NCBI RefSeq assembly: GCF_964355755.1
Contig: NC_092674.1
Location: forward strand, 6,262,001-6,326,000
DNA length: 64,000 nt
Direction: 5' to 3'
Source: Antedon mediterranea
Lineage: Eukaryota > Animalia > Echinodermata
Shown one piece after another: positions 30,801 through 60,800 of this stretch. The position numbers and the translations under genes are program-made. Position 1 is the first letter of the stretch. Every line of letters begins with the position of its first letter. Under the pieces are notes generated by a model, which worked only from the letters and a program-made list of their open reading frames with translations, was not told the DNA's origin and ran no database searches.

Positions 30801-33800
30801 AGGGTTTTAACTCACGACTCTTTCAACTTCACTCCCTCGAAAAATACTCATTGGATTCTTAAAAATGATGAAATAGATCGAAAAATTTATTCTCAAAATG
30901 TGTCCCTTTATTTGGAGTTCTCTCGTATTAATATCCCTGATATATTTTGAATTAAATTAACATTTGGGCTGGAAAAATGAACTGAGTATATACTGTACCA
31001 TTGTTCATTTGTAAAATCTCGATACTTATTCATTCTGAATCCGGGGTAAAATCGCAACACGCCGTTGGCTGTGCCGATATAACGTGTTGCAACATTATCA
31101 TTGTTCACATCACTCAACCATGTATCATCTATTAAATGAGTGATAAAAACCTCATCTCTGATACCATCCTGAAATGAAGATACAATCTTTCAATAAATCA
31201 TAAAAAATCAAATCATTTTTTTAATGAACAAACAAGAATTGAGGCAGATATGAGAATCAAAGTGATTCCATTTCAAAAAGTTACACAAGCATTTTTGCTT
31301 GTTGTACAAAAAAATTCCTTTAGGGACACTATGGGGACATTCTTATGATGGGGACAATTCCTTGTGAAATGAATGTTCAATTATGGCTAACTCCTATCAA
31401 AGCGACACTTCTAATAAGGATACATTTTGTCTCGAAGGGGTCGTCAGTGGTTCTACTGTAGTTTTAAAACATTTTTCTGTAAAATCTGGTATTCTATTCG
31501 GAATGTGTTTTTAATGGTAACAATGAATTTGGGACCTTGTAGACCCCGAAAAAAGTCTGGTTTTGGGAGAGTTTCCGGTTTTCAGAAAGTCTGGTATTGG
31601 GAGATTTGACTGTAGTTATTTTCAAGCTGCTAATTCCATTTTTCAGGGGTCTACTACTCAAACCCCTCAAGCTCCTGATATTCATTATGAGCGTTTCCCA
31701 ATAACAATTTGAGTAATCTCCAGTCTCTCACTAAATGTGCCATTTTTCCCCCGATTGTTATAGATATACTATATATAGATTGTTCATAATATGGCATTTT
31801 CCACAATGTACACATAAGAGCCTGGCATACTCATTTAGCGTTCAATACTATGCACTATTTAACGATCATTAAATAGTACTTTTTTTCCTTTTTTTTTCAC
31901 ATACTGAAATATTTGTAATGTTCAATGGGATACATATAGATTCAAGTATTATTTATAATGGCCTTATATGAAAATACTTACTGTCGGTGGCATAATCACC
32001 TAGGTGATTGCATGCTACTATTCCACTGGGTTTCCATATATCAATCCGATGGTACACAAATGGGTTTCCTAAAATCAAAAAAGATTCTCAGCTGAAAGTT
32101 GCGTAAAGAAATATGGCACAAAAAATTTGATATTCGGAACACCATAGAAAAGATAAAAAAGTAGTGAAATATTTGCGCATGATTAATTTCTGTTCTTAGT
32201 GTTTTCAGTCTTCCAACATTAAGCTTCCCACAATTTGTTTAGGGCTTACCAACCACAATTGTGCACTTCCCTTTGCTTTAACTACTATACTACAGCGTTG
32301 AATCACCGGTTCTCGTCAGATCACCAAAGTTAAGCAATGTTGGGCCCAGTTGCATTCTGGATGGGAAACCGTCTGGAATCACGGCGGGTGCTGTATTACC
32401 GGAGAGTGATGGAATGATAATATCACACTAGCATGTGATAGGCAAGGGTTCGAGCCTATCTGTACCATACCAACTGTATCCTTAGGCAAGATGCTTTGCT
32501 CTCATTGCTTAAAGCCATTGGTCATGTATACATAGTGCACGTTAAAGGACTTGGTACACTATTCGCAAATAGTAGGGGATCGTCTCCCGGTGTGCTGATC
32601 TGGCTGGCTGCTGCCATTGGTCCACGGAGGGCCTAATCTGAATTTCCTCAGTTCCTCAGTTTGTTTGAGAACAAAATATAAATACCTTACATTGATTAGA
32701 ATATGACAAACACTCACCAGTTATCTCTTGTCTAAAAAGTTGAGCTATGTCCTCTTCAACCAAGGCCAACACTGCTACAAGTGTTGTGCCTTCAACCTTT
32801 ATTAGGATGTAAAAATATGTAGATTGTAATATACGTGGGTGATTGCTGTATTAGGATAGAAAATGAACTAAATAAAGGTGGTGGCACCATCCACATTAAT
32901 CTTAATAACTTAACTTAATGAAAAATAATCTGGCGCTGGGTTGTCAAAGGCGGGTGTGTAGAAAGCGACGACCTCGAATTGGACGACCCCAACGACCCGG
33001 GCGACCTCGAATTGGACGACCTAGAATTGGACGACCCATAACACGAAACCGACGACCCCTATAATAGCCTAGCCTAGCCTAGGCCTAAGTATGGTATAAC
33101 ATCCCGAAGCCGAACATAACCAAAGATCTTTAAACCATACCTTATATAATACTCGCAAGCAAGCAATTGATTGAAAAAAATACAGAAATATCGCCATTTG
33201 ACAGGTATAGTATGTAGTTGTTTTTTGATAACAGAGAACTATCACTTATGCCATCCTCGTATATAATTAATTTCGTACGGAAAATACATTTAATTGATTA
33301 TATCATTAGATAGAGTATCATTCTTAGAATTAATTGTCAGTAATATATATAATTTTTTAAATGTTAGGGATATATTTTAAAATAACTATAAATAGATATA
33401 TAATTACACAAACTCAAGATGTTCTTTTCTGCCTGAAACCTAGGCCGAGGAGGGAGCTATATATCCAATACCAAATTGGCGAGTAAATCATGTTTTACTT
33501 TAAATTAAATTTATACGCTCTTCCACAAGGTCAATTGTTAGTTATACATACAGACTATATTAAAACAATGATTTTGAACACGTAGGGCATTTCTTTGAAT
33601 TCTTTCCTATTGTCGTTTTGTGGTAATTTACAGCTTTTTATATGTTTAACAAACGTACATAATCAATTGCGTCTGCATCATGCTAGACTACAACTTCCGG
33701 TAGTGACGTAATCAGCATATTTTTGGTAATAAAACTTTTTCACTAAGCTAGGGAATCTTCTGATATCAATATTCATTAGACCGTACTTTAGTTAGCCAAT

Positions 33801-36800
33801 CAAAATAAACGTATAAACAATTTTGCGGCGATGTTGTTGAGGTAAAATATACTGTGTTTTACAATAACCAATTTGGTTAGAGTAAAACACAATGATAAAG
33901 AATAGGAAACATTTAATAATATGATAAATGTCATTACATAGCAATTTATCACTGTGTTTTACTATAACCAATTTGGTTAGAGTAAAACACAATGATATAG
34001 AATAGGCAACATTTAATAATACGATAAATGACATTTACATAGCAATTTAGCACTGTGTTTTACTATAAACAATTTGGTCAAAGTAAAGCAGAATGATAAA
34101 GAATAGGAATTTAATAATATGATATATGACATTTACATAGCAATTTAGCACTGTGTTTTACTATAACCAATTTGGTTAGAGTAAAACACAATGATAAAGA
34201 ATAGGAAACATTTAATAATATGATATATGACATTCACATAGCAATTTAGCACTGTGTTTTACTATAACCAATTTGGTTAGAGTAAAACACAATGATATAG
34301 AATAGGAAACATTTAATAATTTGATAAATGACATTTACATAGCAATTTGCACTGTGTTTTACTATAACCAATTTGGTTAAAGTAAAACACAATGATAAAG
34401 AATAGGAAACACTTAATAATATGATAAATGACATTCACATAGCAATTTAGCACTGTGTTTTACTATAACCAATTTGGTTAGAGTAAAACACAATGATATA
34501 GAATAGGAAACATTTAATAATTTGATAAATGACATTTACATAGCAATTTGCACTGTGTTTTACTATAACCAATTTGGTTAAAGTAAAACACAATGATAAA
34601 GAATAGGAAACACTTAATAATATGATAAATGACATTTACATAGCAATTTAGCACTGTGTTTTACTATAACCAATTTGGTTAAAGTAAAGCAGAATGATAA
34701 AGAATAGGAATTTAATAATATGATATATGACATTTACATAGCAATTTAGCACTGTGTTTTACTATAACCAATTTGGTTAGAGTAAAACACAATGATAAAG
34801 ATTAGGAAATATTTAATAATAATGATTATTTACATAGCAATTTAGCACTGTGTTTTACTATAACCAATTTGGTTATAGTAAAACACAATGATATAGAATA
34901 GGAAACATTTAATAATATGATAAATGACATTTACATAGCAATTTATCACTGTGTTTTACTATAACCAATTTGGTTAGAGTAAAACACAATGATAAAGAAT
35001 AGGAAACATTTAATAGTAATGATTATTTACATAGCAATTTAGCACTGTGTTTTACTATAACCAATTTGGTTATAGTAAAACACAATGATAAAGAATAGGA
35101 AACATTTAATAATATGATATATGACATTCACATAGCAATTTAGCACTGTGTTTTACTATAACCAATTTGGTTAGAGTAAAACACAATGATATAGAATAGG
35201 AAACATTTAATAATTTGATAAATGACATTTACATAGCAATTTAGCACTGTGTTTTACTATAAACAATTTGGTTAAAGTAAAGCAGAATGATAAAGAATAG
35301 GAATTTAATAATATGATATATGACATTTACATAGCAATTTAGCACTGTGTTTTACTATAACCAATTTGGTTAGAGTAAAACACAATGATAAAGAATAGGA
35401 AACATTTAATAATATGACATATGACATTCACATAGTAATTTAGCACTGTGTTTTACTATAACCAATTTGGTTAGAGTAAAACACAATGATATAGAATAGG
35501 AAACATTTAATAATTTGATAAATGACATTTACATAGCAATTAGCACTGTGTTTTACTATAACCAATTTGGTTAAAGTAAAACACAATGATAAAGAATAGG
35601 AAACACTTAATAATATGATAAATGACATTTACATAGCAATTTAGCACTGTGTTTTACTATAACCAATTTGGTTAAAGTAAAGCAGAATGATAAAGAATAG
35701 GAATTTAATAATATGATATATGACATTTACATAGCAATTTAGCACTGTGTTTTACTATAACCAATTTGGTTAGAGTAAAACACAATGATAAAGATTAGGA
35801 AATATTTAATAATAATGATTATTTACATAGCAATTTAGCACTGTGTTTTACTATAACCAATTTGGTTATAGTAAAACACAATGATATAGAATAGGAAACA
35901 TTTAATAATATGATAAATGACATTTACATAGCAATTTATCACTGTGTTTTACTATAACCAATTTGGTTAGAGTAAAACACAATGATAAAGAATAGGAAAC
36001 ATTTAATAATAATGATTATTTACATAGCAATTTAGCACTGTGTTTTACTATAACCAATTTGGTTAGAGTAAAACACAATGATAAAGATTAGGAAATATTT
36101 AATAATAATGATTATTTACATAGCAATTTAGCACTGTGTTTTACTATAACCAATTTGGTTATAGTAAAACACAATGATATAGAATAGGAAACATTTAATA
36201 ATATGATAAATGACATTTACATAGCAATTTATCACTGTGTTTTACTATAACCAATTTGGTTAGAGTAAAACACAATGATAAAGAATAGGAAACATTTAAT
36301 AATAATGATTATTTACATAGCAATTTAGCACTGTGTTTTACTATAACCAATTTGGTTATAGTAAAACACAATGATAAAGAATAGGAAACATTTAATAATA
36401 TGATATATGACATTCACATAGCAATTTAGCACTGTGTTTTACTATAACCAATTTGGTTAGAGTAAAACACAATGATATAGAATAGGAAACATTTAATAAT
36501 TTGATAAATGACATTTACATAGCAATTTAGCACTGTGTTTTACTATAACCAATTTGGTTAAAGTAAAACACAATGATAAAGAATAGGAAACACTTAATAA
36601 TATGATAAATGACATTTACATAGCAATTTAGCACTGTGTTTTACTATAACCAATTTGGTTAAAGTAAAGCAGAATGATAAAGAATAGGAATTTAATAATA
36701 TGATATATAACATTTACATAGCAATTTAGCACTGTGTTTTACTATAACCAATTTGGTTAAAGTAAAACACAATGATAAAGAATAGGAAACATTTAATAAC

Positions 36801-39800
36801 ATGATAAATGTCATTACATAGCAATTTAGCACTGTGTTTTACTATAACCAATTTGGTTAGAGTAAAACACAATGATAAAGAATAGGAAATATTTAATAAT
36901 AAGGATTATTTACATAGCAATTTAGCACTGTGTTTTACTATAACCAATTTGGTTATAGTAAAACACAATGATATAGAATAGGAAACATTTAATAATATGA
37001 TAAATGACATTTACATAGCAATTTATCACTGTGTTTTACTATAACCAATTTGGTTATGGTAAAGCACAATGATATAGAATAGGAAACATTTAATAATATG
37101 ATAAATGACATTTACATAGCAATTTAGCACTGTGTTTTACTATAACCAATTTGGTTAAAGTAAAACATAATGATAAAGAATAGGAAACATTTAATAATAT
37201 GATAAATGACATTTACATAGCAATTTATCACTGTGTTTTACTATAACCAATTTGGTTATGGTAAAGCACAATGATATAGAATAGGAAACATTTAATAATA
37301 TGATAAATGTCATTACATAGCAATTTAGCACTGTGTTTTACTATAACCAATTTGGTTAGAGTAAAACACAATGACAAAGAATAGGAAACATTTAATAATA
37401 ATGATTATTTACATAGCTAGCAATTTAGCACAATGTTTTACTATAACCAATTTGGTTATGGTAAAGCACAATGATATAGAATAGGAAACATTTAATAATA
37501 TGATAAATGTCATTACATAGCAATTTAGCACTGTGTTTTACTATAACCAATTTGGTTAGAGTAAAACACAATGATAAAGAATGGGAAACATTTTAATAAC
37601 ATGATAAATGACATTCACATAGAAATTTAGCACTGTGTTTTACAATAACCAATTTGATTAGAGTAAAGCACAATGATAAAGAATATGAAACATTCAATAA
37701 TATGATAAATGACATTTACATAGTAATTTATCACTGTCTTTTACTATAACCAATTTGGTTAGAGTAAAACATTTTAACTATGATAAATGATATTTAGCAC
37801 TGTGCTGGATACAGTAAAACACAAATTAAGAATAGGAAACATATAATAATATGATACATTTACATACAAATTTAGTATTGTGTTTTACTATAGCCAATTT
37901 GGTTACAGTAAAACACAATGATAATGAAACATTTATTATATGATATTATTTACATAGCAAAATATTATATTAAACATATCTTATTATCTAAACGTTATGA
38001 AAAGAATAGGATACATATAATGTAATAATATAATAAATACAAGTTACATAGTTTATCATCTTGTTTTACAGAACCAATTTGGTAACACAGTTAAACACAG
38101 TGATAAAGAATAGATACTGTTTTAGGTTATATAACCCTAACCCTAGTTTGAAGCGACATAATAAATTCATCGCGAAAAAGTACGTATCGTATTTAGAAAC
38201 TTTTGAAATTTGTTAGATATGTTTAATAGGTTCTTACGTCTATAAAACAAACAAAAAATATAAATTTCACAAAAAATTCGTGATTTTAATAATTTGCATT
38301 TCTAAAAATGTACACTTATGAAATACCATACATTTTCCAACACATTTTTACTTCATTGATGATTCCCAGAAATCAAAATAAAACAAATTATGATATTTCT
38401 TTTACATTATAGATGTAAGAACCTATATTGAACATGTACCAAATTTCAAACGTTTTTTAAGACGATACGTATATTTTTATCGATGAATTAAGTATGTGAT
38501 CGCTTCAAACTAGGGTTAGGGTTAAATAACCTAACAGTTCCATTCTTTAACACTGTGTTTAACTTGTAACCAAATTGGTTTTAGTACAACACAATGATAA
38601 ACTATGTACATTTTATTTTTCATATTACATTATAGGATACATATAATGTAATAATAATAAATACAAGTTACATAGTTTATCATCTTGTTTTACAGAACCA
38701 ATTTGGTTACACAGTTAAACACAATGATAAAGAATAGACACTGTTTTAGGTTATATAACTCTAACCTTAGTTTGAAGCGATCACATACTTAATTCATCGC
38801 GAAAAAATACGTATCGTATTCAGAAACATTTGAAATTTGGTAAATATGTTCAATAGGTTCTTACGTCTATAAAACAAACAAAAAATAAAAGTTTCAAGAC
38901 AAATTCGTGATTTTAATAATTTGCATTTCTAAACATTTACACTTATGAAAGACAATACATTTCCAACACATTTTTACTTCATTGATGATTCTCAGAAATC
39001 AAAATAAAACTATTAGGATATTTCTTTTGCATTTTAGATGTAAGAACCTATATTGAACATATCTACCAAATATCAAACGTTTTTCAAGACGATACGTATT
39101 TTTAGCGATGAATATTAAATATGTGATCGCTTCAAACTAGGGTTAGGGTTAAATAAACTAAAACAGTTCTATTCTTTATCACTCACTGTGTTTAACTTTT
39201 AACCAAAATGGTTATAGTAAAACACAATGATAAACTTATATGTCAATTTTATTTTTCATAACATAAAATGTTTGATATTCTTTATAATATTTAATATTAT
39301 ATTTTAGGCCTACTATTAATGACGTATAAATGCACACTACATCTGAAATAACTTTCTACTTCATTGGCGATTCTTACCAAAAAAAAAGAACTAATTTTGT
39401 TATGTATATAGAGCAACCTATTATAACATGTCTTGTATGATTTTTATCTCGTTTCAATGACATTTTATACTACAATTCAAATGAAAAAGCATCACAAAAA
39501 AATACGTCTGGTATTCAAAAAGTTTCTAAACTCGGTACACAGAAAAAAGGAAATATTGAAAATGTATGGTCTTTCATAAGTGTGAATTTTTAGAAATGCA
39601 AATAATGGAAATCATCGATTTGTCTTGAAATTTATAATTTGTTTTGTCTTATTGAACATATCTATACAAAATGTCAAACGTTTCTGAATACGATACGTTT
39701 TTTTTCTCGATGAATTTATAATGTCGCTTCAAACTAGAGGGTAGGGTAGTAACCTAACAAGTATCTATTCTTTATCACTATGTTTAACTGTGTAACCATA

Positions 39801-42800
39801 TTGGTTCTAATAAAAAACAATGATAAACTATGTAAATTGTATGTTTCATATAATTACATTTTTTCAAAAAAAAAATTATTGGGAATGTCAAATTTCTTTT
39901 TCATGACATATATCTACAAATTTCAGAAGCTTTTGAGTACGAGTATTTTACGCGATGTTTTTTTATCCTCATTTTAATATTTTGGTAATGTAATTCACAT
40001 AAAGTATTATATCCAAAAATTGTTTATTCTTGGGTAGAAATGAGGAAATAAATAGTATTCCTGTATAATATAATAATCAATAATAAAGTATAAAAAAAAA
40101 TGTTGTGTAAACGAACGTTTTTTACGCTTCGAATTTTCTGTTACATTATGTTTGGATTGAAGCTACAGATATTGAATCATGGACCTATAAATTAGTAATT
40201 TATAGGTCCATGATTGAACATATCGTCACTCACCACACATTTTTTGTTTTGTATTTCGAAAGTATTTATTCTAAAGAACAATTGATGCAAACATCAACTG
40301 CGTATCTTATTTCATTAATTAATTATATTAATTATAATTTGGCGATTATTCGTCACACGAAGAGTCGAATATCGATTCGTCTCGTCATGAGAAGAAAACG
40401 TGCATTGCGCACACTGTTTACGCGCCTCAACAATAAACGGCGAATATGCGATTCGTCACTTATGGAACGCCGTTTTACACAAGTTTTTGGCGATGATAAA
40501 AATTGCATCGATGATGAAATTGCGTCGATGAAAATTGCATCGACGCAATGTAGATTGCGTCGATGCAATGTAGATTGCGTCGACGCAATTTACATTGCGT
40601 CGATGAAAATTGCATCGATGAAAATTGCGTCGATGAAAATTGCGTCGATGAAAACTGCATCGATGAAAATTGCGTCGATGAAAACTGCATCGATGAAAAT
40701 TGATGTGATGAATTTAATTGATTATGAAAATTCCAAATGGTTTTAATTCAATCAATGATGAAAATGACTACTAGTAAAGTAAATGATGATGTTAATAATG
40801 ATGTTAATAATGTTATTATGTTGCTAAAAATTGACGGTTTCTGAATATTTTGATATGATAAACATGTTTACCGCTTGCGCTAGCGCGCGTTATAGACAAG
40901 CGCACAGTGATCGCGCACTAAAACAATGTTGAAATATATGCACTGATTAACATTTTAGTGATTTATTGTCAACACATTTTAGCAATGGATCCATTATTGT
41001 CCTTTCGGACACATTATATCTTCTAGCTAATTGCTTCCGTTAATCCACCAGTTCAGTACATAAAATCCAGATGTCCAGCATCCATGACATCATATTCAAA
41101 TCATACCGGCAGGGAGATCGCAATTTTCATCGATGAAAACTGCATCGATGAAAATTTTTTTTTTTTTTCATCGATGCAGTTTTCATCGATGCAGTTTTCA
41201 TCGACGCAATTTTCATCGACGCAATTTTCATCACATTAACGCAATTTTCATTACATCGACGCAATTTTCATCGACGCAATGTTCATCACATCATTACATC
41301 AATACTATATTCATCGACGCAATTTTCATCACATCGACGCAATTTTCATTGCATCATTGACGCAATTTTATCATCGCCTAAACTGGCATTCCATACTAAT
41401 TGCGTGTGATCTGATTGGTGTATTATAAATAAATTCATCGCGATGAAATTTTCAGTAGATGTAATGAGACAGTTCAGTAGATGTAATGACAGTTAATTTA
41501 ATTGTTCTGCTCTTTTTGTACAAATCTATACTACTTTATATTATGGATTTTGTAGTACTGTTAAAATTATTAAATCTCTGGAAGTGTGTTTTACGAGTAT
41601 GTCCGCAAATTTATGCGTTTACGGTTTTAAAATGTGAGTTTTAAATAGCGAACATGATCTTGTTAGGTGCACTACGCACGCAGTATTCCAAAATGTCTTA
41701 CTAATTGGGAGAAAATCATATTGTATCATATCATATTATATCCATTCTTTAAATTCATATTCTTTATCCAAAACTAAATTGGTATAGTAAAACACAGTGC
41801 TAGCAATTTATCATATTATTAAATGTTTCATATTCTTTATCATTGTGTTTTACCCTAATCAAATTGGTATAGTAAAACACAGTGCTAAATTGCTATGTGA
41901 ATGTCATTTATCATATTTTTAAATGTTTCCTATTCTTTATCATTGTGCTTTACCATAACCAAATTGGTTATAGTAAAACACAGTGCTAAATTGCTATGTA
42001 AATGTTATATATCATATTATTAAATTCCTATTCTTTATCATTGTGTTTTACTCTAACCAAATTGGTTATAGTAAAACACAGTGATAAATTGCTATGTAAA
42101 TGTAATTTATCATATTATTAAATGTTTCCTATTCTTTATCATTGTGTTTTACTCTAACCAAATTGGTTATAGTAAAACACAGTGATAAATTGCTATGTAA
42201 ATGTAATTTATCATGTTATTAAATGTTTCCTATTCTTTATCGTTGAGTTTTACTCTAATCAAATTGGTTATAGTAAAACACAGTGCTAAATTGCTATGTA
42301 AATGTTATATATCATATTATTAAATGTTTCCTATTCTTTATCATTGTGTTTTACTCTAATCTGATTGGTTATAGTAAAACACAGTGCTAAATTGCTATGT
42401 GAATGTCATTTATCATGTTATTAAATGTTTCTTATTCTTTATCATTGTGTTTTACTCTAACCAAATTGGTTATAGTAAAACACAGTGATAAATTGCTATG
42501 TAAATGTAATTTATCATATTATTAAATGTTTCCTATTCTTTATCATTGTGTTTTACTCTAACCAAATTGGTTATAGTAAAACACAGTGATAAATTGCTAT
42601 GTAAATGTAATTTATCATGTTATTAAATGTTTCCTATTCTTTATCGTTGTGTTTTACTCTAATCAAATTGGTTATAGTAAAACACAGTGCTAAATTGCTA
42701 TGTAAATGTTATATATCATATTATTAAATGTTTCCTATTCTTTATCATTGTGTTTTACTCTAATCTGATTGGTTATAGTAAAACACAGTGCTAAATTGCT

Positions 42801-45800: not shown

Positions 45801-48800
45801 CTGCATCATCATTAATTAATATTAATAATCTATATCAAACTGTTGGATATGATCTGTTTAGTTTTTTAATATCTATCTTTTCCATAACTATTAATAATAT
45901 TCTATATCACAATTTTGGATATGATCAGTGTAATCATAGTTTGAACTACCTCAACAATAATTAATATTAATTGTCTATATACCAATATCAAATATGATCA
46001 GTGTAGGCCTAGTCATTTGATAACTGAGCATGCATCATTTTATATCTGCTTCAAATATTAATATTGTCTTAATATAATAAGTGGTTTGAAGGATGTTTGC
46101 AGATGGCCTTTTTTGCATTGTAAAGTTCAATTTATCCAAAAGGTCAAATTTTGACCTATTTCAATAAAATCATTTCATAAGTTGTCTTCTTTTATAGTTT
46201 TAGTGATAATCAATATTAAGTGGTTTTTTACCCCAAAAATGTCAAACCTAGAGCTATTTAATAATAAAATGATTTTATAAATTGTCTTCTTTTATATTTC
46301 TAGTAGTGGTATAATCAGTATTCAATTGTTTGAATGATGTTTGTGGGGTATTTTTTAATTAAGTTTACGCAGTTTACATGGTAAAATCTGTCAATTATCC
46401 AAAATTGACATTTTTCACTCCTAAAAAAATCTTAGAGCCATTTCAATAAAATTATTTCATAAATTGTCCTCTTTTTATGGTTCTAATAAGGATATAATCA
46501 AAGTGGTTTGGATGATGTTTGTGGGGTGTTTTTTAAAAGTTTGCACAGTTTACATGGTAAAATGTGTCAATTTATTCCTAGAGCTATTTCAATAAAATTA
46601 TTTCATAATCACCCCAAAAATGTCAAACCTAGAACATTTTAATAAAATGATTTCATAAATTGTCTTCTTTTATAGTTCTAGTAGTGGTATAATCAGTATT
46701 CAATTGTTTGAATGATGTTTGTGGGGTATTTTTTAATTAAGTTTACGCAGTTTACATGGTAAAATCTGTCAATTATCCAAAATTGACATTTTTCACTCCT
46801 AAAAAAATCTTAGAGCCATTTCAATAAAACTATTTCATAAATTGTCCTCTTTTATAGTTCTAATAATGATATAATCAATATTAAGTGGTTTGGATGATGT
46901 TTGTGGGGTGTTTTTTAAAAGTTTGCACAGTTTACATGGTAAAATGTGTCAATTTATACCTAGAACTATTTTAATAAAATGATTTCATAAATTGTCCTCT
47001 TTTATAGTTCTAGTAGTGGTATAATCAATATTAAGTTGTTTGGATGATGTATGTGGGGTGTTTTTTTAAAGTTTGCACAGTTTACATGGTAAAATCTGTC
47101 AATTTATCCAAAGTTTACATTTTTCACCCTAAAAAATCAAACCTAGAGCTATTTCAATGAAATTATTTCATAAATTGTCCTCTTTTATAGTTCTTGTAGT
47201 GGTATAATCAATATTAAGTTGTTTGGATGATGTTTGTGGGTGTTTTTTTAAAGTTTGCATTAAGTTTACGCAGTTTAAATGGTAAAATCTGTAAATTTAT
47301 CCAAAATTGACATTTTTCACCCTAAAAAGTCAAACTTCAGAGCTATTTCAATAAATTGATTTCAAAAATTCTCTTCTTTTACAGTTCTAGTAGTGATATA
47401 ATCAATATTAAGTTGTTTGGATGATGTTTGTGGGGTGTTTTTGTTAAGTTAGCATTAAGTTTACGCAGTTTACATGGCAAAATCTGTAAATTTATCCAAA
47501 ATTGACATTTTTTACCCTAAAAATTCAAACCAGAGCTATTTCAATAAAATTATTTCATAAACTGTCCTCTTTTATAGTTCTAGTAGTGGTATAATCAATA
47601 TTAAGTTGTTTGGATGATGTTTGTGGGTGTTTTTTTAAAGTTTGCATTAAGTTTACGCAGTTTACATGGTAAAATCTGTAAATTTATCCAAAATTGACAT
47701 TTTTTACCCTAAAAATTCAAACCTAGAGCTATTTCAATAAAATTATTTCATAAATTGTCCTCTTTTATAGTTCTAGTAGTGGTATACTCAATATTAAGTG
47801 GTTTGGATGATGTTTGTGGGGTGTTTTTTTAAAGTTTGCACAGTTTACATGGCAAAATCTGTAAATTTATCCAAAATTGACATCTTTTACCCTAAAAATT
47901 CAAACCTAGAGCTATTTCAATGAAATTATTTCATAAATTGTCCTCTTTTATAGTTCTTGTAGTGGTATAATCAATATCAAGTTGTTTGGATGATGTTTGT
48001 GGGTGTTTTTTTAAAGTTTGCATTAAGTTTATGCAGTTTAAATGGTAAAATCTGTAAATTTATCCAAAATTGACATTTTTCACCCTAAAAAGTCAAACTT
48101 AGAGCTATTTCAATAAATTGATTTCAAAAATTCTCTTCTTTTGCAGTTCTAGTAGTGATATAATCAATATTAAGTTGTTTGAATGATGTTTGTGGGGTGT
48201 TTTTGTTAAGTTAGCATTAAGTTTACGCAGTTTACATGGCAAAATCTGTAAATTTATCCAAAATTGACATTTTTTACCCTAAAAATTCAAACCAGAGCTA
48301 TTTCAATAAAATTATTTCATAAACTGTCCTCTTTTATAGTTCTAGTAGTGGTATAATCAATATTAAGTTGTTTGGATGATGTTTGTGGGTGTTTTTTTAA
48401 AGTTTGCATTAAGTTTACGCAGTTTACATGGTAAAATCTGTAAATTTATCCAAAATTGACATTTTTTACCCTAAAAATTCAAACCTAGAGCTATTTCAAT
48501 AAAATTATTTCATAAATTGTCCTCTTTTATAGTTCTAGTAGTGGTATACTCAATATTAAGTGGTTTGGATGATGTTTGTGGGGTGTTTTTTTAAAGTTTG
48601 CACAGTTTACATGGCAAAATCTGTAAATTTATCCAAAATTGACATCTTTTACCCTAAAAATTCAAACCTAGAGCTATTTCAATGAAATTATTTCATAAAT
48701 TGTCCTCTTTTATAGTTCTTGTAGTGGTATAATCAATATCAAGTTGTTTGGATGATGTTTGTGGGTGTTTTTTTAAAGTTTGCATTAAGTTTATGCAGTT

Positions 48801-51800
48801 TAAATGGTAAAATCTGTAAATTTATCCAAAATTGACATTTTTCACCCTAAAAAGTCAAACTTAGAGCTATTTCAATAAATTGATTTCAAAAATTCTCTTC
48901 TTTTGCAGTTCTAGTAGTGATATAATCAATATTAAGTTGTTTGAATGATGTTTGTGGGGTGTTTTTGTTAAGTTAGCATTAAGTTTACGCAGTTTACATG
49001 GCAAAATCTGTAAATTTATCCAAAATTGACATTTTTTACCCTAAAAATTCAAACCAGAGCTATTTCAATAAAATTATTTCATAAACTGTCCTCTTTTATA
49101 GTTCTAGTAGTGGTATAATCAATATTAAGTTGTTTGGATGATGTTTGTGGGTGTTTTTTTAAAGTTTGCATTAAGTTTACGCAGTTTACATGGTAAAATC
49201 TGTAAATTTATCCAAAATTGACATTTTTTACCCTAAAAATTCAAACCTAGAGCTATTTCAATAAAATTATTTCATAAATTGTCCTCTTTTATAGTTCTAG
49301 TAGTGGTATACTCAATATTAAGTGGTTTGGATGATGTTTGTGGGGTGTTTTTTTAAAGTTTGCACAGTTTACATGGCAAAATCTGTAAATTTATCCAAAA
49401 TTGACATCTTTTACCCTAAAAATTCAAACCTAGAGCTATTTCAATGAAATTATTTCATAAATTGTCCTCTTTTATAGTTCTTGTAGTGGTATAATCAATA
49501 TTAAGTTGTTTGGATGATGTTTGTGGGTGTTTTTTTAAAGTTTGCATTAAGTTTACGCAGTTTAAATGGTAAAATCTGTAAATTTATCCAAAATTGACAT
49601 TTTTCACCCTAAAAAGTCAAACTTCAAAGCTATTTCAATAAATTGATTTCAAAAATTCTCTTCTTTTACAGTTCTAGTAGTGATATAATCAATATTAAGT
49701 TGTTTGAATGATGTTTGTGGGGTGTTTTTGTTAAGTTAGCATTAAGTTTACACAGTTTACATGGCAAAATCTGTAAATTTATCCAAAATTGACATTTTTT
49801 ACCCTAAAAATTCAAACCAGAGCTATTTCAATAAAATTATTTCATAAATTGTCCTCTTTTATAGTTCTAGTAGTGGTATAATCAATATTAAGTTGTTTGG
49901 ATGATGTTTGTGGGTTTTTTTTTAAAGTTTGCATTAAGTTTACGCAGTTTACATGGTAAAATCTGTAAATTTATCCAAAATTGACATTTTTTACCCTAAA
50001 AATTCAAACCTAGAGCTATTTCAATAAAATTATTTCATAAATTGTCCTCTTTTATAGTTCTAGTAGTGGTATACTCAATATTAAGTGGTTTGGATGATGT
50101 TTGTGGGGTGTTTTTTTAAAGTTTGCACAGTTTACATGGCAAAATCTGTAAATTTATCCAAAATTGACATCTTTTACCCTAAAAATTCAAACCTAGAGCT
50201 ATTTCAATGAAATTATTTCATAAATTGTCCTCTTTTATAGTTCTTGTAGTGGTATAATCAATATTAAGTTGTTTGGATGATGTTTGTGGGTGTTTTTTTA
50301 AAGTTTGCATTAAGTTTACGCAGTTTAAATAGTAAAATCTGTAAATTTATCCAAAATTGACATTTTAAAACACAAACTAGGTTGTAAAAAGTGAAGGAAG
50401 TCATTATATTTTAATATTGTTTGGTAATAAAGATGCCTATCATAGTCAAATGGCAATAACTGATTAGCCGAGACCAATGACATTTAAAACAACTCCTACT
50501 TAAAATTCCCTACTTATACAGTACAGCAGCTTTTTGATTGGCTGCAAGTTTAGTTTTCTGTTCGTTCATCAGAAATGGTATAAATAATTATTAATCAATA
50601 AGATTACTGGATTTCTTTAGTATTTCTGACACATTTCAAATCTTAATTGAATTATTAATGTAATGGAAATTTGTCATAGGCCTATTATAGCAACATATCA
50701 TTTCTGGAAGAGTATTACGGTCTGAATAGATCGATGTTAAAACACACGTCCTCATTTATCAAATTATTCATTCACTGCACATTTATTCTGTTAAGAAGAA
50801 CTGGGACCCTCAATAGAAGCCAAAGCATGTCTCATGATGGCCCCTACAATACATATCAAACATAAAAAGATATGGAATATTTTTATTTTTACAACGGCAC
50901 ACGTTCATCATAAACGATGCGTTCTTAAAAGTATAAATTTAAACAGCAAACGGATACAAATCAATAGGGTAATTAGGAACAAAAGAATAACACATTTTCA
51001 AAACCCATCGACTCGATCTCTTGTATACAGTGAATCTAACAAAATCACACTGATCATATCCAACATTAAGTATTAATAATTATTATTGATTAGGTAGATA
51101 TTAAAAGATGCGTTATAACAAATTATGAATATACAGATCATATCCAACAATGTGACATAGATTATTAATAATAATTATTGATGAGGTAGATATTTAAAGA
51201 TGCGTGCTCAGTTATCAAATTATGACTACACTGATTATATCCAACAATGTGATATAAGATATTAATAATAATTATTGATGAGGTAGATATTGAAAGATGC
51301 GTGCTCAGTTATCAAATTATGACTACACTGATCATATCCCACAATGTGATATAGATTATTATTAATAATTATTGATGATGTAGATATTGAAAGATGCGTA
51401 CTCAGTTATCAAATTCTGACTACACTGATCATATCCAACAATGTGATATAAGATATTAATAATAATTATTGATGAGGTAGATATTCAAAGATGCGTGCTC
51501 AGTTATCAAATTATGACTACACTGATCATATCCCACAATGTGATATAGATTATTATTAATAATTATTGATGATGTAGATATTTAAAGATGCGTGCTCAGT
51601 TATCAAATTATGACTACACTGATCATTTCCAACAATGTGATATAAGATCTTAATAATAATTATTGATGAGGTAGATATTTAAAGATGCGTGCTCAGTTAT
51701 CAAATTATGACTACACTGATCATATCCAACAATGTGATTTAGATTATTAACATTAATTATTGATGAGGTAGATATTAAAAGATGCGTGCTCAGTTATCAA

Positions 51801-54800
51801 ATTATGACTACACTGATCATATCAAACAATGTGCTATAGATTATTAATAATAATTATTGATGAGGTAAACATTTAAAGATGCGTGCTCAGTTATCAAATT
51901 ATGACTACACTGATCATATCCAACAATGTGATATAAGATATTAATAATAATTATTGATGAGGTAGATATTAAAAGATGCGTGCTCAGTTATCAAATTCTG
52001 ACTACAATGATCATATCGAACAATGTGATATATGATATTATTAATAATTATTGATTAGGTGGATATTTAAAGATGCGTGCTCAGTTATCAAATTATGACT
52101 ACACTGCCACAATGTGATATAGATTATTATTAATAATTATTGATGATGTAGATATTTAAAGATGCGTGCTCAGTTATCAAATTATGACTACACTGATCAT
52201 ATCCAACAATGTGATATAAGATCTTAATAATAATTATTGATGAGGTAGATATTAAAAGATGCGTGCTCAGTAATCAAATTATGACTACACTGATTATATC
52301 CAACAATGTGATATAGATTATTAATAATAATTATTGATGAGGTAGATATTTAAAGATGCGTGCTCAGTTATCAAATTATGACTACACTGATCATATCCAA
52401 CAATGTGATTTAGATTATTAACATTAATTATTGATGAGGTAGATATTAAAAGATGCGTGCTCAGTTATCAATTAATTATGACTACACTGATCATATCAAA
52501 CAATGTGCTATAGATTATTAATAATAATTATTGATGAGGTAAACATTTAAAGATGCGTGCTCAGTTATCAAATTATGACTACACTGATCATATCCAACAA
52601 TGTGATATAAGATATTAATAATAATTATTGATGAGGTAGATATTAAAAGATGCGTGCTCAGTTATCAAATTCTGACTACAATGATCATATCGAACAATGT
52701 GATATATGATATTATTAATAATTATTGATTAGGTGGATATTTAAAGATGCGTGCTCAGTTATCAAATTATGACTACACTGATCATATCCAAAAATGTGAT
52801 ATAGATTATTATTAATAATTATTGATGCTGTAGATATTTAAAGATGCGTGCTCAGTTATCAAATTATGACTACACTGATCATATCAAACAATGTGCTATA
52901 GATTATTAATAATAATTATTGATGAGGTAGATATTAAAAGATGCGTGCTCAGTTATCAAAATATGACTACACTGATTATATCCAACAATGTGATATAGAT
53001 TATTAATAATAATGATTGATGCTGTAGATATTTAAAGATGCGTGCTCAGTTATCAAATTCTGACTACACTGATCATATCCAACAATGTGATATAAGATAT
53101 TAATAATAATTATTGATGAGGTAGATATTAAAAGATGCGTGCTCAGTTATCAAATTATGACTACACTGATCATATCCCACAATGTGATATAGATTATTAT
53201 TAATAATTATTGATGATGTAGATATTTAAAGATGCGTGCTCAGTTATCAAATTATGACTACACTGATCATATCAAACAATGAGATATAAGATATTAATAA
53301 TAATTATTGATGAGGTAGATATTAAAAGATGCGTGCTCAGTAATCAAATTATGACTACACTGATTATATCCAACAATGTGATATAGATTATTAATAATAA
53401 TTATTGATGAGGTAGATATTTAAAGATGCGTGCTCAGTTATCAAATTATGACTACACTGATCATATCCAACAATGTGATTTAGATTATTAACATTAATTA
53501 TTGAAGAGGTAGATATTAAAAGATGCGTGCTCAGTTATCAAATTATGACTACACTGATCATATCAAACAATGTGCTATAGATTATTAATAATAATTATTG
53601 ATGAGGTAAACATTTAAAGATGCGTGCTCAGTTATCAAATTATGACTACACTGATCATATCCAACAATGTGATATAAGATATTAATAATAATTATTGATG
53701 AGGTAGATATTAAAAGATGCGTGCTCAGTTATCAAATTCTGACTACACTGATCATATCGAACAATGTGATATATGATATTATTAATAATTATTGATTAGG
53801 TGGATATTTAAAGATGCGTTCTCAGTTATCAAATTATGACTACACTGATCATATCCAAAAATGTGATATGGATTATTATTAATAATTATTGATGATGTAG
53901 ATATTTAAAGATGCGTGCTCAGTTATCAAATTATGACTACACTGATCATATCAAACAATGTGCTATAGATTATTAATAATAATTATTGATGAGGTAGATA
54001 TTAAAAGATGCGTGCTCAGTTATCAAATTATGACTACACTGATTATATCCAACAATGTGATATAGATTATTAATAATAATTATTGATGAGGTAAGATATT
54101 TAAAGATGCGTGCTCAGTTATCAAATTCTGACTACACTGATCATATCCAACAATGTGATATAAGATATTAATAATAATTATTGATAAGGTAGATATTAAA
54201 AGATGCGTGCTCAGTTATCAAATTATGACTACATTGATCATATCCCAAAATGTGATATAGATTATTATTAATAATTATTGATGAGGTAAACATTTAAAGA
54301 TGCGTGCTCAGTTATCAAATTATGACTACACTGATCATATCCAACAATGTGATATAAGATATTAATAATAATTATTGATGAGGTAGATATTAAAAGATGC
54401 GTGCTCAGTTATCAAATTCTGACTACACTGATCATATCGAACAATGTGATATATGATATTATTAATAATTTTTGATTAGGTGGATATTTAAAGATGCGTG
54501 CTCAGTTATCAAATTATGACTACACTGATCATATCCAAAAATGTGATATGGATTATTATTAATAATTATTGATGATGTAGATATTTAAAGATGCGTGCTC
54601 AGTTATCAAATTATGACTACACTGATCATATCAAACAATGTGCTATAGATTATTAATAATAATTATTGATGAGGTAGATATTAAAAGATGCGTGCTCAGT
54701 TATCAAATTATGACTACACTGATTATATCCAACAATGTGATATAGATTATTAATAATAATTATTGATGAGGTAAGATATTTAAAGATGCGTGCTCAGTTA

Positions 54801-57800
54801 TCAAATTCTGACTACACTGATCATATCCAACAATGTGATATAAGATATTAATAATAATTATTGATAAGGTAGATATTAAAAGATGCGTGCTCAGTTATCA
54901 AATTATGACTACACTGATCATATCCCAAAATGTGATATAGATTATTATTAATAATTATTGATGATGTAGATATTTAAAGATGCGTGCTCAGTTATCAAAT
55001 TATGACTACACTGATCATATCCAACAATGTGATATAAGATATTAATAATAATTATTGATGAGGTAGATATTAAAAGATGCGTGCTCAGTAATCAAATTAT
55101 GACTACACTGATCATATCCAACAATGTGATTTAGATTATTAACATTAATTATTGATGAGGTAGATATTAAAAGATGCGTGCTCAGTTATCAAATTATGAC
55201 TACACTGATCATATCCAACAATGTGATATAAGATATTAATATTAATTATTGATGAGGTAGATATTAAAAGATGCGTGCTCAGTTATCAAATTCTGACTAC
55301 ACTGATCATATCGCACAATGTGATATATTAGTAATAATTATTGATGAGGTAGATATTAAAAGATGCGTGCTCAGTTATCAAATTTTGACTACACTGATTA
55401 TATCGAACAATGTGATATAGATTATTAATAATAATTATTGATGAGGTAGATATTAAAAGATGCGTGCTCAGTTATCAAATTCTGACTACACTGATCATAT
55501 CGCACAATGTGATATAGATTATTAGTAATAATTATTGATGAGGTAGATATTAAAAGATGCGTGCTCAGTTATCAAATTTTGACTACACTGATTATATCGA
55601 ACAATGTGATATAGATTATTAATAATAATTATTGATGAGGTAGATATTAAAAGATGCGTGCTCAGTTATCAAATTCTGACTACACTGATCATATCGAACA
55701 ATGTGATATAGATTATTAAAAATAATTATTGATGAGGTAGATATTAAAAGATGCGTGCTCAGTTATCAAATTATGACTACACTGATCATATCCAACAATC
55801 TGATATATGATATCAATGCTAATTATTGATGAGGTAGATATTAAAAGATGCGTGCTCAGTTATCAAATTGTAACTACACTGATCATAATACTATACATAG
55901 TCCTTTATGCATTAGACATTGATTTAGTAGTACTACATATCATTTGTTATATTAAGAATGTTGTTTTAGTGTTATTAAAATACTTATCGAATTTTTTTGA
56001 AAATAAAAATATTAGTATTGGTACCTATAAATTTATATATTATAATAACATGCTAGATGTTATAATAATGTGATCTTTATTACAACTAAGAAACAGTTAT
56101 GTACGAGGATGATACACACTGATAGTTCTCAGTTATCAAAAAACGACTACACAATATAGCTCCATTTGATACTGAATGTGTCGACACGAACAAACGAACA
56201 GATATGGAACGCCAAGAGTGCATCATTAAAACTGCATTCGACTCGATTAGCACACGAAATATCATAAACATGGCAAACCAGGCCCTTTTTCAGCGGCAGG
56301 TAAGGTTTGACCATGGAGGTATATGGTTTGACCAGCTCCATGGTTTGGTAAAAATATTTTATACCTCCATGGTTTGACCGTATACAATGCATGTGTGAAA
56401 TGTAAAGCTTTCTTATGGCCCTCCCCATGCAGGATTAGGCCAAGTTGAGCCGCCGACAAGTTGAGGCGCCGCCAAAAACGTTATTTTCTATGAAACGCCA
56501 AATGCTTACTTTCGCCGGTGCTCGTTTCTATTTAATAGAAGTTCTATTTATATTAATTATTAGATATAACGATGTATATTCCAAAGTTTATATATCACGG
56601 TTTTCAGTATATATTATTAAATATTATAATTAAAGAGAAATAATTATGAATATCTGACTTGTAGATTCCAAAATATAAGGCCTAAAACATGACCGAAAAT
56701 GATCGTTTTTAGCCAAAAATGACGTAAACATGTTGCCCCCTCAGGCGGCAGTTGAAGTAAAATAATTGCATAAAATCACCGTTTTTTAGTAAAATATTTT
56801 GTGTATTAACATTGTAAAATTCAATAAAATATGATATTAAAAGATAGTAAATAAAAAATAATAATTATTTAACCTCATTCGAAGAATATCAATACTCTAT
56901 TAGTCCTGAGAGACAACGTGATTTTACGTGGTAGGCATACACGCGAGAAAAATATTATGGAGTGCACTGCATTTTTACCTTGAAAGATTAAAAACAATTA
57001 AATTATTAAATATGACTACAGTACTTTCCTTTGCTGTTTCAAACCAACAAAATTGTAGTATGTAATTATTATTTATTTTCATGACACAATAAACCTAAAG
57101 ACCATGAACTTATGTAGGGCCTACTAGGACACCACTCTATCACTACGCGAAATGTCGTAAAAGACGCACTGGCCGTTTCATAGAAATTACCGGCGGCTCA
57201 ATTTGTCGGCGGCCCAACCGGTCATATCCCCCCATGCACATGTTACGCTGCTTGGTAGGCCTATAGTGTTCGTTATAAGAAGACGAGATGTAATTATACG
57301 TCCATGGTTTAACCATGTATTGTATAATATTTATTTCTTTTTAATTTATTTTTAATATGTCGAATGCAGTTTTAATGATGCACTCTTGGCGTTCCATATC
57401 TTTTCGTTTGTTCGTGTCGACACAATCAGTATCAAATGGCGATATTTCTGTATTTTTTCAATCAATTGCTTGCTTGCGAGTATTATATAATAAGGTATAG
57501 TTTAAAGATCTTTGGCTATGTTCGGCTTCGGGATGTTATACCACACTTAGGCCTAGGCTAGGCTATAGGGGTCGTCGGTTTCGTGTTATGGGTCGTTCAA
57601 TTCGAGTTCGTTCAATTCGAGGTCGCCCGGGTCGTTGGGGTCGTCCAATTCGAGGTCGTCGCTTTCTACACACCCTGTCAAAGGCCTCTATCAAAAAGTG
57701 GTCAGGTTGAAACCTTACCAACCGTACTGGTTGCTAGAGCCCTGCTCAATAGTTGTATTGGACAGGTCGGTTTTGAGGAGATCTGTAGCTCTTCAGACTC

Positions 57801-60800
57801 CTCGCTGTTTCTGTATGAGCACTGGATGCGATTAGATCTTTTGCAAACAGTTTGAATAGCTCATAATACGCCTAAAATATACATCTACAGCAATCAATAT
57901 ACAGCATACCTGTCTCCAGTAGTACGTTGTTCTCACGGACACAACATCAACACCTTCACCAAATGTGTCTCCACGTGCTATAATTTTGTCTGCCACAAAT
58001 GTACGTTGTCCTTCTTCTCTATCGGGTATATTACTGTTTTGGAAGATAAACAACAAATCAATTGAGTACCATACTATAACATTGGTATACAAGTGATATG
58101 CCATATGGATAATGATAAAGAATATCGAACCAGCATGAGAGAAGCATAGGTTTGAGATATGTCCATTCCATGTTGCTTCTATCCTTATACTTTATATATA
58201 ACGATAAATACTTTACTCTCATACTTCGGATAAGACATAAAGCTGTTCATGATTCCACATATGCACGATAACAAATTTGTTACACTATTTGGAAATTAGC
58301 TGATTGCCATTCTAATACTGAAGAGATCACCATCTAACCTTACTCTAATGTAAAAACTCATTTGACTTGAAATTGTCATAAAATTGTGTTTATGTGAAAA
58401 TTTAACATTGTTTTTACCAGGAGGATTACCTGATTGTATCATTGTAAACATCTTTAAATTCTGGAGCTCTTTCTAAAGTTGTAATGTGAACATATATTGA
58501 ATAGTCATTAGTAACCACTTGTGTCAGAGGTAGCAACGGATGAGTCAGTGTGCGACCTGAAAATAAAAAATGAGTTTATCATATATCATATAACACATTT
58601 TTTTTTTATTCAATTTTTTTTAAACCACTTTAGCTTCAAGGGGCGCCTCAGATAAAAAATACAGTACAAATATAGTTAAACAATAAAGAACAGTACATCA
58701 ATCAAATCTTCCAGAATTAACAAGAAATTGTACATAATAAAACAATGGAGTATTTTCAAGAGTCAAAAGAAGATCAGATCCAAAAATAAAATTTTCACTT
58801 AAACAATTTAAATTATAGGCCTACTGTTAAAGAATAATCCTCGACTAAGATATCCTCGATAATTAAGTTAGCGATTACATCTCTTTGTAGATTATAATTT
58901 AGGGCAATAACATACGAAATGAAGCGGATTCTCAACATTAAAGTCACAAGTAAAATTTGGATTGTCTCATAGTCCATGGAAAAATAAATGCAAATTGAAA
59001 CAAGTCGGATTCAGTGTGAATTTGGTATTATAATCATACTTCAAACTGTTAATTATTCAGGGACACAAATAATTTGATGATAACAGAGAGAAAAAATTTA
59101 AGGATTTCATAAATTGATTTGATTAATCTGTCATAGGAATCAAGTTTTTCAGAGACTGTATCATTGAATTATACATTTGATAAATGAAGAAACTTAAAGA
59201 TCAATACATTTAATAGTCCAGAAATAAAGATGCTTATTAACAAAAAAACAAAATAGTTAAGCATACCTTGAACTGATTCTGCACAAACAAGAAAAAAAAA
59301 GATAAATATTATATACGTATTATAATTATAAATTGTTTATCTATATTGTAAATAACAACAATAATAATTCTTGTGAGGCAAACAAAATATATATATATAT
59401 ATAAATCCAAAGGCAAATTACTGAAAAAAATGACAATGCTGTGGGTATCAGTGGCTGGATCTCAATGGAGATACAAAAATAAAAAGCGAAAAGCTAAATC
59501 AAAACGATAAAGTAAACAGCCAGAAAAGTTAGCAGAGCTTTCGGGCAACACTAGCCCTTCATCAGTGCAAGTGAAGGAATTTGGATAACGTCATATATAT
59601 ATATATATATATAAACATTTACAAGCATTAGAGGAAATTCTAAAACACCTGGTTATAAACTGAATGTTATATTTGGAAATTTGGATACAGTAGAACCTCT
59701 CATTTGGACACTTTCCCGTGATGGAGCTGTTGGTGGTTTAAATGCTTGGATACCAATCCCAAGGTCCTGGGTCCAAATCCTGTAAGATGGCAGGGTTTTT
59801 TTCTAATGACAGAACAACTCTACTCTTGTAATAAGACTTTGTTTGTGTAGAGCATCTTGTGTATATGTTTTCTTTGTGAATTATTTAAGAGGAGGTCGCC
59901 TTATTAGCCACTAGCCTTAACAGTTATGTGGCTATCTGGCCTTTCCAGGAGGCTTTTCTCTAAACTGCCATTACAAATAGAAATAAACAATGTATGAAAA
60001 AAGATATGTCATAAATGTAATAAAAATAACCTACCTTTTTTGTCAAACATAAATGCGTATGAATATTCTCCTTGCTTGAAATAGGTGAGATCTTCAAATA
60101 TTTCTGCTAATGGGATATCAGTACCAACTACACCTCTAAATTCCCCATTAATTCTGACAGGTTTTAACACTGAGCTCAATAAACCTGTAGAAGTAGAAAT
60201 AGGAAATAATAGTAATTATTGGTATTCTGGCAAAATAACTGAACAGAAAAGACAATTAGAAGCAAAACAAAATACAGCTGCCCATATTGACTTTAAGAAG
60301 TTGTTGGGAATGGAAGATTTAGTGACTGGAGATAAGGAAGTATGTAATATACTCATCCAACAGAGAGCACAAACTCGCCAATTACAAGATGGATACAAAT
60401 GTTATAGTTTATCATGCTTATAAACTAAGTCTCATTTGAGGCTTAGGGAGTGGATTTGAAAGAGTCATGAGTTACAACCCTGGCACTAGGTTAAGATTGA
60501 ACCCTGGAAGGGATTGGAAGGCAAGCATGTTAACCACCAAGCTACAGCTCCGCTACTTTTTAAACCGTTTAAACCTTATACAGTCTTTTAAAAAATAGAA
60601 AGACTTTATAAAAGCGTGGTCAAACCAGAGGCTGCAATTACAACTATCAAACTTTATCAAAAAACCTTGCGTATCAACATTTTTACGAAAACAATAGATA
60701 CCAGGTGCTTCCGTCCAAGCGTGTAGATTATGTTTTTTGGGTGGAAAGGGATCTGACATTTGTTAAATAAGAACAAACTTTTTTTTTAGAATCTTACCTG

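What the first reader, a model, noticed from the sequence alone, without database searches (positions are those of the whole stretch)
32942..57685. 24.7-kb satellite-carrying foldback transposon inserted as one unit into a ~380-bp intron
Seen: ~250-bp TIRs (63 bp identical at the tips) and a perfect 10-bp TSD enclose 24,724 bp, most of it satellite DNA, with no transposase ORF. The host intron (32797-57909) would be only ~379 bp without the element and one TSD copy. Known: G-starting long TIRs with 9-11-bp TSDs are typical of Mutator/MULE and Foldback elements. Inferred: this is a giant non-autonomous element that carries, and may disperse, three satellite families. Intact termini and TSD suggest a young, possibly polymorphic insertion.
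Basis: partly seen in the sequence, partly recalled or inferred. Interest (0 to 1): 0.88.

Follow-up and report, generated by a model that had tools for sequence, protein, structure and literature searches.

The report
Nested transposons carrying mirrored satellite arrays
A 24.7-kb insertion in an intron of what is likely a feather star, absent from one related species' copy of that intron, is a stack of at least four nested transposons, likely built up step by step; the two large inner ones hold all its satellite DNA, partly in mirror-image arrays, and likely help spread it.

Summary
The measurements are right: 250-bp inverted ends, a 10-bp target duplication, 64% satellite, no transposase, and a 379-bp intron without it. 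A contig from a related organism shows the empty site with one copy of the 10-mer. The 'one giant element' reading is not the best fit. The outer ends belong to a ~0.95-kb Mutator-like MITE (L1), about a thousandfold deeper than its flank. Its left arm is split by a 22,961-bp element (L2, 7-bp TSD); removing L2 restores a ~320-bp arm. L2 holds a 9,970-bp element (L3, 7-bp TSD), and a 798-bp MITE (9-bp TSD) sits in L1's middle. L2 and L3 share unusual unequal ends (CAGGTATA / GAGCTATA) and hold all the satellite, the 97- and 101-bp families in mirror-image arrays; L2's monomer contains its own terminal motif. L1's arm carries private changes and its tip appears on both haplotypes of the probable source sample, while L2's end is identical to multi-copy contigs. 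So L1 likely came first and is not very young. Verdict: a Tetris/Galileo-like nest, with two large satellite-bearing foldback elements not found in my literature searches.

The parts
32797..57909 (-). Host intron of a VWA / alpha2-delta-like gene (name CACHD1-like is from recall); 379 bp without the insertion
   Evidence: X5 spliced contig; VWA_2 E=6.8e-6; weak VGCC_alpha2, VWA_N
32942..32951 (+). 10-bp TSD of L1, left copy
   Evidence: single copy in X6 empty site
32952..33201 (+). L1 (Mutator-like MITE) left arm, outer 250 bp, with 15-bp subterminal repeats; last 7 bp are L2's left TSD
33195..33201 (+). 7-bp TSD CATTTGA of L2, left copy (an 8-bp reading shifted by one base is formally possible)
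33202..56162 (.). L2: 22,961-bp element (12,984 bp without L3), ends CAGGTATA..TATAGCTC, TIR ~65 bp (33202-33266 / 56097-56162, 11 substitutions in 65)
   Evidence: X5 contig ends exactly at 56162
33447..33453 (+). 7-bp TSD GAGGAGG of L3, left copy
33454..43423 (.). L3: 9,970-bp element, ends GAGCTATA..TATACCTG, TIR 48 bp (33454-33501 / 43376-43423, 5 substitutions in 48)
33851..38113 (+). 101-bp satellite, left array of L3 (~39 units)
38006..39863 (.). Palindromic ~630-bp units (two in tandem plus an inverted part), related to the 101-bp monomer; no clean TSD found
40461..41395 (.). ~0.93-kb small foldback with inverted arrays of a 15-bp unit; TSD not resolved
41714..43200 (-). 101-bp satellite, right array of L3 (~13 units), inverted to the left array
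43424..43430 (+). 7-bp TSD of L3, right copy
43431..44641 (+). L2 non-satellite interior, TAGGCCTA-rich, with a 26-codon ORF at 44378; no Pfam match
44642..46075 (+). 97-bp satellite, left arrays of L2 (two short, more diverged blocks)
46138..50366 (+). 193-bp satellite with a 193/193/193/183 higher-order pattern; not detectably related to the other monomers
51047..55887 (-). 97-bp satellite, right array of L2 (~50 units), inverted to the left arrays
56163..56169 (+). 7-bp TSD of L2, right copy
56170..56242 (+). Inner 73 bp of L1's left arm, displaced 23 kb by L2; pairs with 57359-57431 (2 substitutions in 73)
56432..57229 (.). L1b: 798-bp MITE with GGAT ends and 9-bp TSD CCCCATGCA (56423-56431 / 57230-57238), nested in L1
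   Evidence: joint 56431->57245 in X1, X5, X6, X8 and contigs starting at 56432/56434
57359..57675 (-). L1 right arm (~317 bp), uninterrupted
57676..57685 (+). 10-bp TSD of L1, right copy
57686..57744 (-). Remnant end of another dispersed repeat (L0) into which L1 inserted; tip at 57744
   Evidence: loose ends at 57676 and 57744; also in X6 empty site

Best explanation
The 24.7 kb is a nest of at least four non-autonomous cut-and-paste transposons, each bounded by its own inverted ends and target duplication, likely built up in place by successive insertions. Shown: a ~0.95-kb MITE (L1; G-starting ~320-bp arms, 15-bp subterminal repeats, 10-bp TSD) occupies a site that is empty in a related organism; a 798-bp MITE (9-bp TSD) lies in its middle; a 23-kb element (L2, 7-bp TSD) splits its left arm; a 10-kb element (L3, 7-bp TSD, same terminal signature) lies 252 bp inside L2. 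Inferred: L1 was moved in trans by a Mutator-type transposase and arrived first; L2 and L3 are foldback-type elements moved in trans by another transposase (hAT- or P-type, from the 7-bp TSD); their 97- and 101-bp satellites are amplified subterminal repeats, likely transposase-binding sites, facing each end in mirror image, so L2/L3 and not L1 are the likely satellite carriers. Whether L3 entered L2 here or before L2 jumped is open.
For: Removing L2 and one 7-mer restores a continuous L1 arm (9 substitutions, 3 indels in 314 aligned bases) and gives 1,756 bp, or 949 bp without L1b. Each nested TSD is perfect; a 7-mer match at a junction fixed by the TIR has a chance near 1e-4, ~1e-3 allowing one-base shifts. 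L2 and L3 share ends (CAGGTATA, GAGCTATA) and only a 7-bp TSD fits both. The layers differ in abundance: L1 tip ~1,100-1,400 times the flank depth (11,613 vs 10 in X1; 262,546 vs 241 in X3; 57,721 vs 41 in X6), L2's right spacer ~12-50 times. L1 copies without L1b exist in 4 of 4 runs. An X5 contig identical to 55911-56162 stops exactly at L2's end. Age order: at 6 of the 9 L1 arm differences the family majority carries the left-arm base, so the right arm has its own changes, while L2's right spacer is identical to contigs at ~10 times single-copy depth. L2's right TIR matches the 97-bp monomer in the mirrored orientation, 0 of 200 shuffles reaching it.
Against: Summed contig depth is not a copy number. 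L3's TIR-to-monomer match is weak (7 of 200 shuffles for its right end, 39 and 83 of 200 for its left), L2's left TIR gives 6 and 3 of 200, and L3's right TIR also scores 5 of 200 against the 97-bp array. The 193-bp satellite is not mirrored and matches no TIR. L1's arm differences could be inherited from a rare donor copy. The L2/L3 ends agree at 9 of the first 11 bases, just short of Repbase's 10-of-11 rule. Tables were cut (768 and 6 loose-end rows not shown).
Confidence: 0.75

Rival explanations
1. One reading: the nest was assembled at a donor locus and the whole 24.7 kb jumped here in one step, using L1's intact outer 250 bp.
For: The outer 63 bp and 15-bp subterminal repeats are intact on both ends, the 10-bp TSD is perfect, and the related organism lacks everything between. 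No intermediate allele was seen.
Against: L1 is a very high-copy small family with its own changes in this copy, while L2's end matches multi-copy contigs exactly and an X5 contig breaks at L2's terminus. The nest needs to be built once either way, so one-step movement adds an event.
Confidence: 0.15
2. L2 and L3 are not mobile units; the satellites are independent arrays that landed or grew inside an old MITE, and the 7-bp repeats are chance.
For: L2's TIR is only 83% alike between ends; the 193-bp array is unrelated to any end; GAGGAGG lies in a low-complexity tract.
Against: Two independent elements show the same unequal termini and 7-bp duplication; L2 splits L1's arm cleanly; mirrored arrays sit inside each pair of ends.
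Confidence: 0.07
3. Assembly artefact: repeats were mis-joined into the intron.
For: No listed piece spans the right junction from unique DNA, array lengths were not checked, and the left-junction contigs reach only 29 bases into the element.
Against: Three perfect nested TSD pairs and an outer TSD that matches an independent empty site would not arise from mis-joining; X1 and X3 contigs run from unique flank into the tip.
Confidence: 0.03

Closest known systems
Tetris, Drosophila virilis foldback (PMC4079207, passages read)
   Same: Non-coding foldback whose TIRs hold tandem repeats that grew into kb-size satellite-like arrays; the repeat shares a short stretch with the outer TIR, as L2's 97-bp monomer does.
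   Different: Tetris has 8-10-bp TSDs and TIRs up to 1.7 kb and was assigned to Mutator. L2/L3 have 7-bp TSDs, short (48-65 bp) unequal TIRs, unique spacers before the arrays, and are 10-13 kb.
Galileo, P-superfamily foldback of Drosophila (PMC4168063, passages read)
   Same: 7-bp (rarely 8-bp) TSD; tandem repeats and nested elements inside the arms; a 9-kb non-coding copy is described.
   Different: Galileo prefers a GTANTAC target; the two targets here are CATTTGA and GAGGAGG. No transposase here to place L2/L3 in P.
Muta1/Muta5 non-autonomous MULEs of Aedes aegypti (PMC5225508, passages read)
   Same: L1: TIR over 100 bp with 15-bp subterminal repeats, hundreds of non-coding derivatives.
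   Different: Muta TSDs are 8-9 bp; L1's is 10 bp (within the 8-11 bp given for MULEs in PMC6446971). No sequence link tested.
hAT families with 7-bp TSD (existence noted in PMC4455052; the name hATw for such a group is recalled, not confirmed)
   Same: 7-bp TSD, short TIR beginning CAG at one end, subterminal repeats.
   Different: One end begins GAG; kb-scale mirrored arrays; no transposase seen.
Helitron-borne satellites of the Pacific oyster (PMC8268682, passages read)
   Same: Satellite arrays scattered in a marine invertebrate genome inside mobile elements.
   Different: There the carriers are Helitrons with a central array; here they are TIR elements with TSDs and inverted arrays.

Membership tests
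Mutator/MULE (outer element L1) | TSD of 8-11 bp | tested here: met
   10 bp, confirmed by empty site; one locus only
Mutator/MULE (outer element L1) | Long TIRs, often with short subterminal repeats | tested here: met
   ~320-bp arms, 15-bp repeats
Mutator/MULE (outer element L1) | MULE DDE transposase in an autonomous partner with the same ends | not testable with these tools
   No genome held; none inside the element; tip not in metagenome contigs
MITE (L1 core, L1b) | Short, non-coding, high copy, TIR and TSD | tested here: met
   949 and 798 bp; depth far above flank
   Left arm split by L2; interior elements have own TIRs and TSDs
   No genome; contigs break at repeats
Foldback-type element (L2, L3) | Tandem repeats in inverted orientation towards the two ends | tested here: met
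   101-bp arrays 0.92 alike across arms; 97-bp arrays 0.88-0.91
Foldback-type element (L2, L3) | Repeat unit derived from the terminal sequence | tested here: inconclusive
   Clear for L2's right end (0 of 200), weak for its left end and for L3
P superfamily / Galileo (L2, L3) | 7-8-bp TSD | tested here: met
   7 bp for both
P superfamily / Galileo (L2, L3) | Galileo target consensus GTANTAC | tested here: not met
   CATTTGA and GAGGAGG
P superfamily / Galileo (L2, L3) | THAP-domain transposase | not testable with these tools
   No remnant found; partner elsewhere not searchable
hAT, 7-bp-TSD group (L2, L3) | hAT transposase / dimerisation domain in an autonomous partner | not testable with these tools
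   No remnant found
L2 and L3 in one superfamily (Repbase rule, PMC4455052) | Same TSD length and at most 1 mismatch in terminal 11 bases | tested here: inconclusive
   Same TSD length; matched ends identical for 8 and 9 bases but 2 mismatches in 11

The most novel reading that the evidence does not exclude
L2 and L3 belong to an undescribed, recently active group of giant (10-23 kb) non-autonomous 7-bp-TSD transposons with unequal ends, in which each family has amplified its own transposase-binding subterminal repeat into kb-scale mirrored satellite arrays, and L2 jumped here as a 23-kb unit already carrying L3, so cut-and-paste elements spread three satellites through crinoid genes.
Probability: 0.3. 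Interest if true: 0.65.

Novelty: new variant of a known kind. Interest (0 to 1): 0.42.

Why it matters
Nested transposons are common, so the locus as a whole is not surprising. The useful part is L2/L3: two large elements, apparently multi-copy in the case of L2, where satellite arrays sit in mirror image inside defined ends. They would offer a direct test, outside Drosophila, of the idea that satellites arise from transposon end repeats and are spread by cut-and-paste. The locus also shows a 0.38-kb intron growing 66-fold relative to a close relative.

Tried and rejected
Metagenome scans for L1's tip and L3's TIR core: 0 matches each. Earlier findings: 0 by place, sequence and words. Transposase remnants: none in 71 ORFs (10 had weak unrelated hits below cut-off) or 36 stop-masked frames; a by-eye 'SIEGP' hAT-like ending near 50800 got no support. 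The 211-aa ORF at 40111 is largely the 15-bp repeat and has no Pfam match. The idea that the 193-bp unit is a dimer of the 97-bp unit was rejected (12 and 68 of 100 shuffles). TSD scans for the 630-bp palindromes and the 15-bp foldback gave only low-complexity noise. My prediction that X6's 698-nt contig would reappear at the left flank was wrong (it runs the other way); the empty site came from another contig. Two homologue searches with host exons found nothing and the Atlas was unavailable, so the host gene name rests on domain matches and recall. No RNA holder was listed on record; X5 is only guessed to be RNA. X5 has no cover in the intron at the left junction, so whether that individual carries the insertion is unknown.
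Full report
Setting. A sarcoglycan exon of the window is 100% identical over 91 residues to a protein labelled Antedon mediterranea, and the other exons match at 93-100% in HSPs that include splice edges, so the window is likely from an Antedon feather star (crinoid). The host gene is on the minus strand and has a VWA exon (Pfam VWA_2, E=6.8e-6) and weak alpha2-delta matches; the name CACHD1-like is my recall. No whole genome is held.

Observation. The ends align at 92.5% with 63 identical bases at the tips. Only a 10-bp flank is duplicated among lengths 4-15. Satellites fill 15,908 of 24,724 bp. The intron 32797-57909 would be 379 bp when empty, the two exons join in frame, and a contig of run X5 is spliced at exactly these points. 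No transposase family was found in 71 ORFs or 36 stop-masked frames of the non-satellite parts.

Empty site. Ten public runs hold part of the right flank; five were laid. In X6 (organism B, a different label from the best holders) one 345-nt contig follows the unique left flank over 32691-32951 (7 substitutions, 4 gaps) and continues for 35 letters, of which the 30 shown equal window 57686-57715. That is the orthologous site without the insertion and with one copy of the 10-mer; it is one contig from one sample. The target itself lies in the end of another dispersed repeat: 54, 82 and 76 contigs in X1, X6 and X8 lack the element before 57676, with a consensus (agreement 0.64-0.67) ending like the window's left flank.

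The interior is a nest. (L2) At 33202 the left arm stops; its missing 73 bp lie at 56170-56242 and pair with 57359-57431. Between them is a 22,961-bp element with a 65-bp TIR and a perfect 7-bp TSD. (L3) 252 bp inside L2 is a 9,970-bp element with a 48-bp TIR and a perfect 7-bp TSD. L2 and L3 have the same two unequal ends, CAGGTATA and GAGCTATA, in opposite orientation. An 8-bp reading fits L2 alone, but only 7 bp fits both, and an X5 contig stops at 56162, the 7-bp boundary. (L1b) 56432-57229 has GGAT ends and a 9-bp TSD; all four runs laid show L1 copies joined across it. What remains of the outer element is 1,756 bp, or 949 bp without L1b. L3 also holds palindromic 630-bp units related to its satellite and a small 15-bp-repeat foldback, without resolved TSDs.

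Where the satellites are. 5,750 bp lie in L3 and 10,158 bp in L2 outside L3; none in L1. The 101-bp arrays face each other at L3's two ends and are as alike across arms (0.918) as within (0.923, 0.934). The 97-bp arrays do the same in L2 (0.878-0.911 across). L2's right TIR aligns with the 97-bp monomer, in the orientation expected for each arm, better than all 200 shuffles; its left TIR gives 6 and 3 of 200. For L3 and the 101-bp monomer the result is weak (7 of 200 for the right end, not significant for the left). The 193-bp array is unpaired and matches no end.

Abundance and age. Summed contig depth is only a rough guide. L1's tip is about 1,100-1,400 times deeper than the flank in X1, X3 and X6; L2's right spacer about 12-50 times in X1, X6 and X8. 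L1's arms differ by 9 substitutions and 3 indels in 314 bases; at 6 of the 9 (the others are not in the cut table) most or all laid contigs carry the left-arm base, so this copy has changes of its own. L2's right spacer is identical to a 176-nt X1 contig at depth 97.7 (single copy about 10) and to 252 nt of an X5 contig, while organism B's version differs at 19 of 144. In the probable source sample, X1 and X3 contigs run from the unique flank through 32951 into the tip, the X3 one carrying alleles unlike the window, and no empty path is listed. This suggests both haplotypes carry L1's tip, with caveats: the contigs reach 29 letters in, below the tool's 31-letter bar, contigs can drop variants, and 6 loose-end rows were not shown.

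Mechanism. Best reading (0.75): L1, a Mutator-like MITE, inserted first; L1b, L2 and L3 are separate insertions, L2 probably recent; L2 and L3 are foldback-type elements moved in trans by a 7-bp-TSD transposase (hAT or P, unresolved), whose end repeats have been amplified into satellites. Boundaries, TSDs, the empty site and array orientation are shown; order, transposases and binding role are inferred. Rivals: one-step jump of the pre-built composite (0.15), chance arrays in an old MITE (0.07), mis-assembly (0.03).

Comparison. From passages read: Tetris (PMC4079207) and Galileo (PMC4168063) show foldbacks with repeats in their arms, Galileo with 7-bp TSDs and a 9-kb non-coding copy; Muta1/5 (PMC5225508) and the MULE survey (PMC6446971) match L1; Repbase (PMC4455052) notes hAT families with 7-bp TSDs; oyster satellites ride in Helitrons (PMC8268682); a review names nested insertion and TIR-derived satellites as known routes (PMC12628747). 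Passages of PMC12905397, PMC5753468 and PMC8277862 added nothing decisive. Searches listed no paper on such elements in crinoids; the library is partial and Repbase/Dfam were not searchable.

Verdict. Real insertion, correct measurements, but most likely a nest rather than one young giant. New variant of a known kind; interest 0.42.

Noticed in passing
window 57686-57744 and 32912-32941: L1 inserted into the remnant of another dispersed repeat whose tip (CAGGGCTC on the minus strand) is at 57744; the remnant is also in organism B's empty site.
   Followed up: partly
window 3670-9142: An 89-bp palindromic satellite (5471-9063, higher-order periods 285-444) with diverged inverted flanks at 3670-4212 and 5096-5491; possibly another, older foldback.
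   Followed up: partly
window 32277-32645 and 28975-29260: 5S-rRNA-derived SINE-like repeats; Rfam 5S hit at 32277-32399, 42.3 bits.
   Followed up: partly
window 43431-44458: Inside L2, a stretch that by eye resembles a first exon, a TAGGCCTA-rich intron and an acceptor before a 26-codon ORF (44378); a similar TAGGCCTA tract lies near 14250. No Pfam match.
   Followed up: partly
window 22350-23504: Adjacent near-perfect 82-bp (97%) and 56-bp (99%) tandem arrays after a 240-bp palindrome at 22018-22256.
   Followed up: no
window 3293-3565, 11635-11871, 13100-13500, 16554-20066: Neighbouring genes: steroid 5-alpha-reductase domain exon (Pfam), a sarcoglycan, and between them a gene that looks like TUSC3/MAGT1 (recall only).
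   Followed up: partly
window 1935-2047, 18463-18668, 19188-19308, 25230-25805, 28166-28294, 62514-62653: A short dispersed inverted-repeat family occurs many times in introns.
   Followed up: no
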